Positions 11,908-62,797 of a stretch of 64,000 bases of DNA are shown here, piece after piece; the stretch's first letter is position 1; the number at the start of each line of letters is the position of its first letter. The DNA comes from Escherichia phage T4, in the sequence record NC_000866.4; one strand, written 5' to 3'. The translations under genes were made by a program, and so were the position numbers. The notes beneath the pieces are model-generated. The model saw only the letters and a program-made list of their open reading frames with translations. It was not told where the DNA came from and did not search any database.

Positions 11908-12510
11908 TTATAGATTAAATCCTTCAAAATCAAGAGTATAGATAGTGTATGTTGAACACTTTTTATACTCATATCTATCTGCAATTCTAAATACACTTCC
12001 AGCTGGTATCATTACTTCTTGTTCATCTGAAACTAATTCCATATTACGATAACGATGACTATCCGGAAACTTAAAGTTTGGATTGTATTCTTTACAGCGT
12101 AGAGCTTTTATAGCATACTCCTGGAAATTGAATACCATAGGAGCTTTGAATTCAAAAATAACTTGTGTGTTATACTCTAAACCAGAAGCAAAATGTAGAG
12201 CTATATTTTTATCATATGAAGCTGATACGACTTTATCAAATGTAATAATATCAATTCCTTGATTTAATACTTGTTTAGTCTCAGCTGGAACACCTCTCCA
12301 AAGAGGTTTATCGTTTGGAACCAAACGAGATTTGATTATTTCATTTAACCAAGAATGGTCATCTGGTTTATTAGTAATACAATGAATTAAAAGTTCAATT
12401 TCAGATAAATTAAACCCTTCAGAAAGTAATTCTTCACGAATAGAAGCACGCACCGATGCATCCATTGATTTTATTTTAAAATCTTTTAGTTGCATTACTG
12501 AGTATTTCAT
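11908..12510 (-). CDS. modA: ADP-ribosyltransferase ModA
   Basis: 200-aa ORF, paralogous to the adjacent 207-aa ORF; synteny and length. Confidence 0.78.
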   Translation of the reverse strand: MKYSVMQLKDFKIKSMDASVRASIREELLSEGFNLSEIELLIHCITNKPDDHSWLNEIIKSRLVPNDKPLWRGVPAETKQVLNQGIDIITFDKVVSASYDKNIALHFASGLEYNTQVIFEFKAPMVFNFQEYAIKALRCKEYNPNFKFPDSHRYRNMELVSDEQEVMIPAGSVFRIADRYEYKKCSTYTIYTLDFEGFNL

Positions 12511-13130
12511 TCAACTACCTCAATATCATAAACTTTAAATGTTCCAAATGAATCGTGTAATTTTTCTTTTGAAATAGAAGTTATTTTATACTTTCCAATT
12601 GGAATCATCCATTCTTGTTCACGCACAATCATCATTAAGTTATCAGTACGCTCTGAATCTAATCCATCAGTATCTTCATACGTGTACTTAAACTCAGTAT
12701 TAGGAGAAGAAAGTATAATATCGCTGATATGGTCAGAATAATTAAAAGCTTTATCAGTTTTTAAACGAAGTATTGTTTCAGTGAAATATTCAGCATAAGA
12801 AAAAGAACACGCTGTATGCAAACTAGTAGTAAATGAATCTACCCTGTTCGTTGAAAACACTTCTCCAACTTGTAAATCTTTAATGAGTTCTTTTGTCGAT
12901 TTTGATATACCACGATATAATTGATAAGGCGATTTAGTTAAATGCTTTTTAATGATTTCATTTAAATGCTTATGAAGAGCTTCATTCTTTTTGGCTTCCA
13001 TACATTGCCAAAGAACAGACTGCTCAAAGTCAGTAAATTTTTCACAGACCTTTTTATACATATCATATTGAAAATCAACGCTTTCAGCTTTTATAGATAA
13101 CTGTTCAACATCTGCAAGATTAATAATCAT
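12507..13130 (-). CDS. modB: ADP-ribosyltransferase ModB
   Basis: 207-aa ORF, stop overlaps the modA start. Confidence 0.78.
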   Translation of the reverse strand: MIINLADVEQLSIKAESVDFQYDMYKKVCEKFTDFEQSVLWQCMEAKKNEALHKHLNEIIKKHLTKSPYQLYRGISKSTKELIKDLQVGEVFSTNRVDSFTTSLHTACSFSYAEYFTETILRLKTDKAFNYSDHISDIILSSPNTEFKYTYEDTDGLDSERTDNLMMIVREQEWMIPIGKYKITSISKEKLHDSFGTFKVYDIEVVE

Positions 13131-19131: not shown

Positions 19132-19758
19132 TTAACCTCTATTCATAAAAGCATTAAAAATTTGGTCATCAATAGAAACATTTACTTTAGGCTGTTTTTC
19201 AGATGGCAATTCATATCCACATATTACAATTTTATGATCAATATCAAAATACACAGAAGCAATATGATTAATGATATTTTCAGTAAAGTCTAAATCAACA
19301 TCAATATCTTTTTGACCAAAGCCCAAAGGATAAATAATGCGAGTAATTCGATTATCTTTAACAAAGATTCCACCGACATACTCTGTGCTGCGTTTAAAGT
19401 CTACACGCCGACGAAATGAAAAATATTCAGGCTCTTTATGAGCTCGGCTCATAGGACACAACGAATAACTAGAATAAGAGATGTCAAATCCTACGCCTTC
19501 AATATGAACTAAATTGTCATGATTAAACCAATTATAATCATATGCCAAGTCCATTAGATTGTCATATGTGAAAAGCACCGGATTAACATCATTGGTCACA
19601 AGCATATAATTAGCAACTGCTATAATTTCATTATTTTTAACGAATACAAACCGTGATTGATGCGAATGGCCTGGACCTGCGTTTTCACGATTAATGATAT
19701 AACACTGGGCACCTTTATATTTGTACGTGTCTTTACACTTGTGCATTTGATAAAGCAT
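19132..19758 (-). CDS. hypothetical protein at the 61.2 position (possibly the anti-DarT factor AdfA)
   Basis: 208-aa ORF; assignment by synteny and from memory only. Confidence 0.55.
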   Translation of the reverse strand: MLYQMHKCKDTYKYKGAQCYIINRENAGPGHSHQSRFVFVKNNEIIAVANYMLVTNDVNPVLFTYDNLMDLAYDYNWFNHDNLVHIEGVGFDISYSSYSLCPMSRAHKEPEYFSFRRRVDFKRSTEYVGGIFVKDNRITRIIYPLGFGQKDIDVDLDFTENIINHIASVYFDIDHKIVICGYELPSEKQPKVNVSIDDQIFNAFMNRG

Positions 19759-60345: not shown

Positions 60346-60534
60346 TTAGTCCTTAGTTAAATTTTCTAAATATGTTTCTAAATCATTTTCAGCTTTATCG
60401 ATAGATTTTACTAATTCGTAATATGTTTCGGCATCTCCATATTCAGAAGATATTTCAAAAGACAAATCCTTTTCTAAACTAATAATTTCACCAACTAAAA
60501 ATAATATTTCGTTCTTTTGTTCGCGAGTAATCAT
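60346..60534 (-). CDS. hypothetical small protein
   Basis: 62-aa ORF. Confidence 0.5.
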   Translation of the reverse strand: MITREQKNEILFLVGEIISLEKDLSFEISSEYGDAETYYELVKSIDKAENDLETYLENLTKD

Positions 60535-60722
60535 AAGGAATTTATATAATCAATGAGTTCTTGTTCTTTATTATCGAATTCTTTAGAAAGTTCTTCGTAC
60601 TCGTTTGCGCTAAAAGGACCGCATTCATTACAAACTTTTTCCAATTCACTATTTTTATCCATAACTTCGTGGATAAGAGAAAAGAGTGTGTCTTTTTGTT
60701 CTTTGCTTAAACTCATAACCAT
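60531..60722 (-). CDS. hypothetical small protein
   Basis: 63-aa ORF, paralogous in style to 60346..60534 (...SKEQKDTLFSL / ...TREQKNEILFL). Confidence 0.5.
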   Translation of the reverse strand: MVMSLSKEQKDTLFSLIHEVMDKNSELEKVCNECGPFSANEYEELSKEFDNKEQELIDYINSL

Positions 60723-60940
60723 GTCACCTTTAAGCAGTATTCTTCTACATGCTGTTTACGACCTTTCTTATCAATAAAGGTATATTCAACGAATGTTCCA
60801 ATGTAGTCTTTATCTACATCATGTGGACTATTAATTGGACATTTAGTGCGACAAATGCGTTCCCATTGACGAATAATTACTGCCTTATTCTTTGGGTCAT
60901 ATGGATGTGGATAATGTATATTCATAATAATGGTTCCCAA
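60713..60940 (-). CDS. hypothetical small protein
   Basis: 75-aa ORF. Confidence 0.5.
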   Translation of the reverse strand: MGTIIMNIHYPHPYDPKNKAVIIRQWERICRTKCPINSPHDVDKDYIGTFVEYTFIDKKGRKQHVEEYCLKVTWL

Positions 60941-61389
60941 TCAACAATCACAATTTCTAATTTAGAGGAATATGTATCTAAAATCCCCTCAATAATATCC
61001 CAGTTCCCTTTACCTATGCCTGCACCAATCCTAGGCATATAGATTGTAGGTTTAATCAGTTTATTTTCACCAAACTCATTTAATTCTAACATACAATTCA
61101 TTAAAGCGGAATACTCAAAATTTGGCCCTGGTTGAAATTGAGTATAAAGATTGAAGCAGTAAGCTTTATGAGTCCTAAAGTATTTTTCATAGACTGAGTA
61201 AGAACCGAGTTTAGTTACATCACCCCATTCAGTCTGTAATTTATCAGCTTCCAAAATTTTAGGGAAAGCTTTGGTTAATTGACCCGCTACGCCTGAACCC
61301 ATAGTATGAAAACAATTACATCCATGTGCAATATTTTTACCTTCAGCGAAAAGGGCGACAATATCGCCCTTGATATATTTTACAATCAT
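60922..61389 (-). CDS. macro-domain protein (predicted ADP-ribose binding/hydrolase)
   Basis: 155-aa ORF with macro-domain signatures KGDIV...IAHGCNC..MGSGVAG and PRIGAGIGKG. Confidence 0.72.
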   Translation of the reverse strand: MIVKYIKGDIVALFAEGKNIAHGCNCFHTMGSGVAGQLTKAFPKILEADKLQTEWGDVTKLGSYSVYEKYFRTHKAYCFNLYTQFQPGPNFEYSALMNCMLELNEFGENKLIKPTIYMPRIGAGIGKGNWDIIEGILDTYSSKLEIVIVDWEPLL

Positions 61390-61733
61390 CTAGTACTCAA
61401 TCCTCGATTATAAGAATCTACCAAACGGTCAACCATTGAATGACAAGCGGCTTTATCTTTCTCCTCCGCAACTGAACATTCTAAGGTATTCCACTTTTTA
61501 GCATATCGTTTTAACAATGTATCGTTTTTGTATCTGCTTGATTTATCTCTTTCTCCGTCTTTATATGCATATATTAATTTCTGTGCAAATTCAGCTTGGC
61601 ATGCCTTATTTTTCCCACAATAATCTGCCGCAGTGCGGTTTACATATTCTCTAATTTCAGTATATGATGTATCTGCTGACGCAGAAGCAGAAAATGAAAT
61701 TAATCCTATACATAAAACCAAAATTTTAGTCAT
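61386..61733 (-). CDS. secreted 115-aa protein (vs position)
   Basis: 115-aa ORF with N-terminal signal peptide (MTKILVLCIGLISFSASASA). Confidence 0.6.
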   Translation of the reverse strand: MTKILVLCIGLISFSASASADTSYTEIREYVNRTAADYCGKNKACQAEFAQKLIYAYKDGERDKSSRYKNDTLLKRYAKKWNTLECSVAEEKDKAACHSMVDRLVDSYNRGLSTR

Positions 61734-62271
61734 TTACTATTTCCAAAAGTTTATTATTTTTAAGGTAATTAGCCTTTTCTAGGACTTCAGAAGCATATTT
61801 AGAACCTGCTTTAACATTCCATCCCGAATTATAAGAGGATATTGCTTTTCTTATATCGCCCTTATGTATATTTAACCAATAAGAAAGTTCAATGTACGCC
61901 CAGGAAGCTGAATTGGATCGTTTATTCAACATTCTTTTTATTTCAGCATCGGTCATATTATAACCAAGTTCCTTAACTCTTGCTCGCATAGTAGGCAAAT
62001 AATTTTGGAACATTCCGTAGGCGTGATGCTTTGGTTTAGATTTTAAATTAACTCCGCCAGAGCTTTCTTGCCATAAAATGGCAGCCATTATATGACCTAA
62101 TCCGCTCTTGTGGATATTTTTGTGTGTTTTATATTTTCCATCCTTAGAAAATTGTTCCCCGAATTGATACGCGTAACGCATGTTATCGAGTTGGACATTA
62201 CTGAAAGTATGCTCGGAGCTATGTGCCATCATTGAAATGGCCAATAGACCAGCGAGTAGTGCTTTTCTCAT
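61726..62271 (-). CDS. secreted lytic-transglycosylase-like protein
   Basis: 181-aa ORF with signal peptide and SLT-like motif (AAILWQESSGG). Confidence 0.6.
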   Translation of the reverse strand: MRKALLAGLLAISMMAHSSEHTFSNVQLDNMRYAYQFGEQFSKDGKYKTHKNIHKSGLGHIMAAILWQESSGGVNLKSKPKHHAYGMFQNYLPTMRARVKELGYNMTDAEIKRMLNKRSNSASWAYIELSYWLNIHKGDIRKAISSYNSGWNVKAGSKYASEVLEKANYLKNNKLLEIVND

Positions 62272-62740: not shown

Positions 62741-62768
62741 GTTATTCTCCTCTTAACTGATAGAAAAA

Positions 62769-62797
62769 TTATACCACAGTCAAGAGGAAAAGTAAAC
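62769..62797 (-). promoter_or_regulatory. early sigma70-type promoter upstream of regB
   Basis: Minus strand GTTTACttttcctcttgactgtgGTATAAT. Confidence 0.6.

What the first reader, a model, noticed from the sequence alone, without database searches (positions are those of the whole stretch)
60922..61389. Macro-domain protein in a genome that also encodes ADP-ribosyltransferases
A 155-aa ORF carries clear macro-domain motifs (IAHGCNC..MGSGVAG and PRIGAGIGKG). The same window encodes the ADP-ribosyltransferases ModA and ModB (11908-13130). A phage macro domain could erase ADP-ribose marks, either fine-tuning the phage's own modifications or reversing host defences that ADP-ribosylate phage DNA or protein (DarT-type).
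Basis: partly seen in the sequence, partly recalled or inferred. Interest (0 to 1): 0.55.

Follow-up and report, generated by a model that had tools for sequence, protein, structure and literature searches.

The report
T4 tk.4 macrodomain, known anti-DarTG2 factor
The ORF is phage T4 gene tk.4, a real macrodomain protein already annotated as such; a 2025 preprint showed that T4 needs it to resist the bacterial DNA-ADP-ribosylating defence DarTG2, so the finding is correct but not new.

Summary

A 2025 bioRxiv preprint (HIDEN-SEQ) found tk.4 as the only T4 gene conditionally required on DarTG2 hosts. A clean knockout sensitised T4, and the gene was renamed adfM.

The suggested link to ModA/ModB has no support. 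Tk.4-like macrodomains occur in 2,749 phage records, while ModB-like and Alt-like ARTs occur in about 1,000-1,200, all T4-like.

One detail I did not find stated in the papers read: Tk.4 and all 63 aligned homologues carry Gln84 where DarG, TARG1 and PhiKZ AdfM have the catalytic lysine. They keep Asn25. This Asn/Gln pair is that of Streptomyces SCO6735, a proven thymidine-ADP-ribose DNA hydrolase, but Tk.4 lacks SCO6735's longer mobile loop.

Hydrolysis by the T4 protein itself has not been shown. Novelty: already known. Interest: low.

The parts
60922..61389 (-). tk.4 (adfM) coding sequence: 155 aa, a single macrodomain with no extra domain
61282..61332 (-). Loop-1 region IAHGCNCFHTMGSGVAG (residues 20-36). 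It contains invariant Asn25 (61315-61317), which aligns with SCO6735 N27, Taq DarG N22 and PhiKZ AdfM N23
   Evidence: Coordinates; invariance in 63 homologues; residue map; mutational data for the equivalent Asn in SCO6735, DarG and PhiKZ AdfM
61138..61152 (-). Motif NLYTQ (residues 80-84). Invariant Gln84 (61138-61140) occupies the position of the catalytic Lys of TARG1 (K84), Taq DarG (K80) and PhiKZ AdfM (K78), and equals Gln85 of SCO6735
   Evidence: Profile alignment to TARG1 and BT1257; MAFFT residue map that reproduces published numbering; N80, Y82 and Q84 invariant; the same motif in distant phage homologues; SCO6735 Q85A is inactive
61006..61035 (-). Phosphate-binding loop PRIGAGIGKG (residues 119-128). 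G122 and G124 are invariant. G126 sits where TARG1 has catalytic Asp125
61386..61389 (-). ATGA overlap of the vs stop codon and the tk.4 start codon (probable translational coupling)
   Evidence: Sequence; annotation
60922..60925 (-). ATGA overlap of the tk.4 stop codon and the tk.3 start codon
   Evidence: Sequence; annotation
62768..62796 (-). Best sigma-70-like promoter match upstream of regB (TTTACT-17-TGnTATAAT). It is a possible start of the regB-vs.1-vs-tk.4-tk.3-tk.2-tk.1-tk transcript. No minus-strand terminator-like site lies between it and tk.4
   Evidence: Consensus scan only, and the number of sites is not above the shuffled expectation. Descriptive, not proof

Best explanation
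tk.4 encodes AdfM, a stand-alone early-region macrodomain enzyme that protects T4 from the DarTG2 toxin-antitoxin defence. On infection, DarT2 ADP-ribosylates thymidines in single-stranded DNA and blocks replication. Tk.4 most likely binds the ADP-ribose moiety in its macrodomain cleft and hydrolyses the thymidine-ribose N-glycosidic bond, restoring replicable DNA. The chemistry is predicted to be lysine-independent, as in Streptomyces SCO6735. In that model, Gln84, held in place by Asn25, positions the distal ribose and a water-mediated step breaks the bond. This differs from the lysine mechanism of DarG and TARG1. What is shown: the macrodomain identity and fold class, the Asn25/Gln84 active-site composition, and the genetic requirement on DarTG2 hosts (from the literature). 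What is inferred: catalysis on dT-ADPr DNA by the T4 protein, and the role of Gln84.
Against: No biochemical assay, catalytic mutant or complementation is reported for T4 Tk.4 in the texts I could read. The genetic evidence is a preprint. Tk.4 lacks the catalytic Lys of DarG. It also lacks the five-residue-longer mobile loop and the Lys89 that SCO6735 uses for DNA processing, so the transfer of mechanism from either enzyme is imperfect. The residue mapping rests on sequence and profile alignments, because I could not inspect model coordinates. T4 DNA carries glucosyl-hydroxymethylcytosine (background knowledge), and how that affects DarT2 target motifs or Tk.4 access is unknown.
Confidence: 0.75

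Rival explanations
1. Tk.4 neutralises DarTG2 mainly by binding and inhibiting the DarT2 toxin stoichiometrically, like AdfA/AdfB or the second function of DarG, rather than by hydrolysing DNA-linked ADP-ribose.
For: Catalytically dead SCO6735 Q85A still inhibits DarT in vitro, more strongly than DarG K80A or TARG1 K84A (PMC9411070). T4 already uses a binding-type inhibitor, AdfA. No enzymatic data exist for Tk.4.
Against: Invariant conservation of the ADP-ribose-binding and catalytic-site residues (N25, G33, Q84, G122, G124) across very diverse phages and hosts fits an enzyme acting on a universal chemical mark, not a binder of one variable toxin. Tk.4 has no counterpart of DarG's C-terminal DarT-binding domain; it is a 155-aa single domain.
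Confidence: 0.12
2. Tk.4 erases or tunes ADP-ribose (or RNAylation) marks placed on host proteins by T4's own transferases Alt, ModA and ModB.
For: The same genome encodes ModA and ModB and Alt. At least one macrodomain, Legionella MavL, is arginine-specific (title of PMC10951314), so Arg-ADPr cleavage by a macrodomain is not impossible.
Against: Distribution is decoupled. The Tk.4 family occurs in 2,749 phage records, including 184 Pseudomonas and 129 Vibrio phages and roughly 88-kb Felixounaviruses. ModB occurs in 1,014 records and Alt in 1,221, essentially restricted to T4-like phages. Tk.4 belongs to the ALC1/TARG1 class, whose documented substrates are Glu/Asp esters and thymidine-ADPr, whereas Alt and Mod target arginine (background knowledge). 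In HIDEN-SEQ, tk.4 scored only under DarTG2. tk.4 is not adjacent to any ART gene; it lies about 48 kb from modA/modB.
Confidence: 0.05
3. Tk.4 processes a small-molecule ADP-ribose derivative. It would act as an ADP-ribose-1''-phosphate phosphatase (the historical 'A1pp phosphatase' annotation, like yeast Poa1p) or an O-acetyl-ADP-ribose deacetylase, linked to RNA repair or NAD metabolism.
Against: These names are homology transfers, not tests. The T4 Pnkp/Rnl1 repair route leaves no 2'-phosphate and so should make no Appr>p or A1pp (background knowledge). The only phenotype on record is DarTG2 sensitivity. Such an activity could coexist with DNA de-ADP-ribosylation without explaining that phenotype.
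Confidence: 0.06

Closest known systems
T4 Tk.4 / AdfM (anti-DarT factor Macrodomain), HIDEN-SEQ preprint 10.1101/2025.11.20.689424
   Same: It is the same gene. The window is 100% identical to T4 records over 60500-61800.
   Different: Nothing differs. The preprint gives genetics and a structural match to Mtb DarG. In the passages I read it does not comment on the missing catalytic lysine and reports no biochemistry.
Streptomyces coelicolor SCO6735 and Bacteroides BT1257 (ALC1-like subclass; PDB 5E3B, 2FG1/2AFC)
   Different: Identity is only about 26-29%. Tk.4 lacks the five-residue-longer mobile loop and has Gly88 in place of Lys89. It has Gly23 where SCO6735 has Val25. It is phage-encoded.
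DarG macrodomain (antitoxin of DarTG2; PDB 5M31, 5M3I, 7OMU)
   Different: Catalytic Lys80 is replaced by Gln84. There is no C-terminal DarT-binding domain and no adjacent darT gene. The NCBIfam DarG equivalog model scores 30 bits against a cut-off of 250.
PhiKZ gp104 'AdfM' (Cell Rep 2026, PMC13309987)
   Same: It is a phage stand-alone macrodomain that counters DarTG2 and carries the same name. Removal of DarT2 ADP-ribose from DNA is shown in vitro.
   Different: It belongs to a different subfamily. gp104 is DarG-type (E 9e-25 to Mtb DarG, with the FPTK lysine), and BLASTP aligns only 23 residues of it with Tk.4. This indicates independent acquisition.
Human TARG1/OARD1 and yeast Poa1p
   Different: The TARG1 catalytic dyad K84/D125 corresponds to Q84/G126 in Tk.4, and TARG1 has Ser where Tk.4 has Asn25. 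Poa1p is characterised as an ADPr-1''-phosphatase.

Membership tests
Macro domain superfamily (Pfam PF01661) | Profile HMM score above the curated gathering threshold | tested here: met
   27.7 bits against 22, E 2.9e-6, covering residues 22-132
Macro domain superfamily (Pfam PF01661) | Three-layer alpha/beta/alpha fold with a central mixed beta-sheet | tested here: met
Macro domain superfamily (Pfam PF01661) | ADP-ribose binding | not testable with these tools
   The binding-loop glycines G33, G122 and G124 are invariant.
ALC1/TARG1-like macrodomain class | Closest structural and sequence neighbours are class members, clearly separated from the MacroD, viral, PARG and macroH2A classes | tested here: met
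DarG antitoxin (DarTG2) | NCBIfam equivalog model NF048014 above its cut-off | tested here: not met
   30.3 bits against a cut-off of 250; only the macro part matches
DarG antitoxin (DarTG2) | Catalytic lysine (Taq K80) | tested here: not met
   Gln84 is at that column, invariant in 63 homologues
DarG antitoxin (DarTG2) | C-terminal DarT-binding domain and an adjacent darT gene | tested here: not met
   155-aa single domain. The neighbours are vs and tk.3. No darT lies near the two homologues whose contigs were inspected
DarG antitoxin (DarTG2) | Conserved loop-1 Asn (Taq N22) | tested here: met
   Asn25 aligns with it and is invariant
SCO6735/BT1257 subclass | Gln at the catalytic-Lys position together with the stabilising Asn | tested here: met
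   Q84 = Q85 and N25 = N27; functional data for SCO6735
SCO6735/BT1257 subclass | Mobile loop five residues longer than in DarG/TARG1, carrying Lys89 and Lys94 | tested here: not met
   The Tk.4 loop has the DarG/TARG1 length, with Gly88 at the Lys89 column; the feature is defined in PMC9411070
SCO6735/BT1257 subclass | Val/Ile25, whose backbone positions the catalytic water | tested here: inconclusive
   Gly23 is at that column. The role is played by the backbone carbonyl, so side-chain identity may not matter
AdfM (phage anti-DarT factor, macro type; functional class) | Loss of the gene sensitises the phage to DarTG2 | not testable with these tools
   Reported for T4 tk.4: single HIDEN-SEQ hit plus a clean knockout
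AdfM (phage anti-DarT factor, macro type; functional class) | Removes DarT2-made ADP-ribose from DNA in vitro | not tested
   Shown for PhiKZ gp104 and for SCO6735, but not reported for T4 Tk.4
Poa1p-type ADP-ribose-1''-phosphate phosphatase | Residues probed in Poa1p structures (His23, Ser30) and phosphatase activity | tested here: inconclusive
   Tk.4 His22 aligns with Poa1p His23, and Thr29 with Ser30 (mutant entries 6LFS and 6LFT). Activity is not testable here

The most novel reading that the evidence does not exclude
Tk.4 defines a large, phage-specific branch of ALC1-like macrodomains (2,749 phage records). The branch combines the SCO6735/ALC1-type Asn-Gln active site with the short DarG/TARG1-type loop. 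It would therefore use a lysine-independent chemistry that may accept more than thymidine-ADPr, for example ester-linked protein ADP-ribose or marks made by other host ARTs or by the phage's own ARTs. That would make it a broad-spectrum eraser rather than a dedicated DarG mimic.
Probability: 0.15. Interest if true: 0.5.

Novelty: already known. Interest (0 to 1): 0.15.

Why it matters
The result shows that T4 layers three separate counter-measures against one class of defence: AdfA (a binder), AdfN (a NADAR enzyme acting on guanine-ADPr) and AdfM/Tk.4 (a macrodomain acting on thymine-ADPr). It also shows that macrodomains of this type are carried by about 5% of sequenced phage records. This much is already in the literature. 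The residual value of this check has three parts. First, it settles the annotation. Second, it shows that the ModA/ModB association is coincidental. Third, it flags that T4 AdfM is not a DarG-type enzyme at the catalytic residue, which tells experimenters which mutants to make (Q84A and N25A rather than a lysine) and warns that the two proteins named AdfM are not orthologues.

Tried and rejected
1. Membership of the DarG family was rejected. The NCBIfam score is far below its cut-off, the catalytic Lys is absent, and there is no DarT-binding domain and no darT neighbour.

2. Orthology with PhiKZ AdfM was rejected. BLASTP aligns only 23 residues, and gp104 is DarG-type.

3. Full membership of the SCO6735 subclass was rejected because the long mobile loop and Lys89 are absent.

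4. A functional tie to ModA/ModB/Alt was tested by comparing the phage-wide distribution of the three families and found unsupported. This is a coarse test: counts only, and other ART families were not searched.

5. I looked for cellular, possibly darT-linked relatives among hits labelled as bacterial MAG proteins. The two inspected (P0072, P0118) lie on T4-like phage contigs, so they say nothing about a bacterial origin.

6. The promoter and terminator scan gave no enrichment over shuffles, so it is used only descriptively.

7. Pfam has no model that hits ModA or ModB. Their identity rests on matches to the T4 records.

8. I could not inspect AF2 coordinates, so the spatial Asn25-Gln84 contact is inferred from alignment to SCO6735 and was not measured.

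Full report
**What is there.** The window matches phage T4 at 100% identity over 60500-61800. The ORF at 60922-61389 on the minus strand is 155 aa and ATG-started. It is T4 gene tk.4, whose GenBank note already reads "contains A1pp phosphatase motif"; other T4 records call it "macro domain-containing protein" or "phosphatase". The gene sits in a tightly packed minus-strand block: regB, vs.1, vs, tk.4, tk.3, tk.2, tk.1, tk. It has ATGA stop/start overlaps on both sides, with vs at 61386-61389 and with tk.3 at 60922-60925. The best promoter-like match on that strand lies upstream of regB (62768-62796), and no minus-strand terminator-like site follows before tk.4. However, the scan is not enriched over shuffles, so this is only descriptive. 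GC content is that of the window, 0.344 against 0.34.

**Is it a macrodomain?** Yes.
- Pfam Macro scores 27.7 bits against a cut-off of 22.
- An AlphaFold2 model built on 63 homologues has pLDDT 96.1 and pTM 0.91.
- Foldseek ranks the same proteins first.
- A profile of the family finds the same set by sequence, at E 2e-17 to 3e-11.

Tk.4 therefore belongs to the ALC1/TARG1-like class. In that class, reversal of DarT thymidine ADP-ribosylation has been shown for DarG, TARG1 and SCO6735 (PMC5179494, PMC9411070).

**What is already known.**
- The A1pp/macro match of tk.4 orthologues was tabulated in 2006 (PMC1524935).
- In 2025 it was shown that T4 lacking both adfA and adfN remains DarTG2-resistant, which implied a further factor (PMC11825919).
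- The HIDEN-SEQ preprint (10.1101/2025.11.20.689424) screened a T4 transposon library on a DarTG2 host. It found tk.4 as the single significant hit, showed that a clean knockout is sensitised, and renamed the gene adfM. It proposed enzymatic removal of ADP-ribose from DNA, by analogy with DarG.
- Independently, a Cell Reports 2026 paper gave the name AdfM to PhiKZ gp104 and demonstrated DNA de-ADP-ribosylation in vitro (PMC13309987).

I found no biochemistry for the T4 protein itself.

**Active-site anatomy.** I aligned Tk.4 with three distant phage homologues, SCO6735, BT1257, TARG1, Taq and Mtb DarG, and PhiKZ gp104. The alignment reproduces the published residue numbers of every reference: SCO6735 V25/N27/Q85/K89/G128, Taq DarG N22/K80/G119, TARG1 K84/D125, and PhiKZ N23. 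This gives confidence in the register. The mapping for Tk.4 is as follows.
- Asn25 aligns with the conserved Asn whose mutation cripples SCO6735, DarG and PhiKZ AdfM.
- Gln84 sits at the column of the catalytic lysine of TARG1, DarG and PhiKZ AdfM. It is invariant in all 63 homologues, within an N-x-Y-T-Q motif. It is also present in Felixounavirus, Pakpunavirus, Phapecoctavirus, Bacillus-phage and Vequintavirus-classified versions.
- Gly126 replaces TARG1 Asp125.

The independent HMMER profile alignment to TARG1 and BT1257 gives the same pairing. Gln at this position is the hallmark of SCO6735, BT1257 and ALC1. In SCO6735, Q85A abolishes activity and N27S nearly does, and a water-mediated, lysine-independent mechanism has been proposed. 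Tk.4 nevertheless lacks the five-residue-longer mobile loop and the Lys89 that define the SCO6735 subclass. It is thus a separate, phage-borne branch with a Gln-type site and a short loop.

It is not a DarG family member: the NCBIfam score is 30 bits against a cut-off of 250, and it has no catalytic lysine, no DarT-binding domain and no darT neighbour. It is also not an orthologue of PhiKZ AdfM, which matches Mtb DarG at E 9e-25 but aligns with Tk.4 over only 23 residues.

**Most likely mechanism.** Tk.4 is made from the early-region polycistronic message. It binds ADP-ribose attached by DarT2 to thymidines of single-stranded phage DNA and hydrolyses the N-glycosidic bond, using the Asn25/Gln84 arrangement. 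Replication can then proceed. The fold class, the residue composition and the genetic requirement are shown, the last from the literature. The catalytic activity of the T4 protein and the role of Gln84 are inferred. I put this at about 0.75.

**Rivals.**
1. Stoichiometric inhibition of DarT2. This is plausible as an additional activity, because dead SCO6735 still inhibits DarT. However, the invariance of catalytic-site residues across very different phages argues for an enzyme.
2. Erasing T4's own Alt/ModA/ModB marks. The distribution test argues against a functional tie. tblastn finds Tk.4-like genes in 2,749 phage records, including 184 Pseudomonas and 129 Vibrio phages. ModB-like genes occur in 1,014 records and Alt-like genes in 1,221, essentially all T4-like. 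Alt and Mod modify arginine (background knowledge), which is not a known substrate of this macro class. Also, tk.4 scored only under DarTG2.
3. A small-molecule role as an A1pp phosphatase or OAADPr deacetylase. This is the source of the database names. It cannot be excluded as a side activity, since His22 aligns with Poa1p His23. It does not explain the phenotype.

One further limit on substrate range: wild-type T4 is strongly restricted by the mRNA ADP-ribosyltransferase system CmdTAC (PMC11618068). Tk.4 evidently does not neutralise every ADP-ribosylating defence.

**Origin.** Hits labelled as bacterial MAG proteins (P0072, P0118) lie on T4-like phage contigs beside Rnl1, a Dda-like helicase, PNKP and dCMP deaminase, with no darT nearby. 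The retrieved family is thus essentially phage-borne, and its nearest solved relatives are free-standing cellular macrodomains rather than DarG.

**Verdict.** Novelty is "already known". The only increment here is the note that T4 AdfM has a Gln-type rather than DarG-type catalytic site, and that the two proteins named AdfM belong to different subfamilies. Interest is low (0.15).

Noticed in passing
window 19132-19758 (-): This 208-aa ORF corresponds to T4 gene 61.2 (adfA), a binding-type anti-DarT factor. The same window therefore holds two of T4's three anti-DarT genes. The third, adfN (gene 30.3), lies outside the window at about 128 kb of the T4 genome.
   Followed up: partly
window 60346-60534 (-) and 60531-60722 (-): tk.1 and tk.2, immediately downstream of tk.3, are small paralogues; both match Pfam DUF7438. 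tk.3 matches DUF7202. All three have unknown function.
   Followed up: partly
window 60713-60940 (-): The mechanical ORF list starts tk.3 at a TTG (60940, 75 aa). The annotated start is the ATG at 60925 (70 aa), which overlaps the tk.4 stop codon as ATGA.
   Followed up: yes
window 61386-61733 (-) and 61726-62271 (-): Vs ('valyl-tRNA synthetase modifier') and Vs.1 (SLT lytic-transglycosylase domain) both begin with hydrophobic, signal-peptide-like N-termini (MTKILVLCIGLISFSASASA and MRKALLAGLLAISMMAHS). That is odd for a protein said to modify a cytoplasmic synthetase. The HIDEN-SEQ preprint reports vs as the most depleted T4 gene in minimal glucose medium.
   Followed up: no
L010 (T2, LC348380.1) 414-796: T2 carries two extra small ORFs (57 and 70 aa) between tk.2 and tk.3 that T4 lacks, a roughly 373-bp insertion. 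RB18 shows the same extra length in its match.
   Followed up: no
L009 (OL964745.1, mutant T4 clone T4_7t1) 622-997: In this laboratory mutant clone, tk.4 is annotated as two fragments (58 and 61 aa). This is consistent with the gene being dispensable without DarTG2 pressure, or with an assembly error.
   Followed up: no
window 61351-61371: A perfect 8-bp-stem hairpin (AAGGGCGA-CAATA-TCGCCCTT) lies within codons 7-13 of tk.4. The scan flagged it as terminator-like on the plus (antisense) strand. It may be chance.
   Followed up: no
L011 344-3739 and L012 (distant T4-like phage contigs): In distant T4-like phages, the Tk.4 homologue sits between RNA ligase 1 and a Dda-like helicase, with PNKP a few genes away. 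This is a different neighbourhood from T4's vs/tk block.
   Followed up: partly
literature (PMC13309987 and 10.1101/2025.11.20.689424): There is a naming collision. 'AdfM' was coined independently for PhiKZ gp104 (DarG-type, with a catalytic Lys) and for T4 Tk.4 (Gln-type). The two share only a 23-residue BLASTP match.
   Followed up: yes
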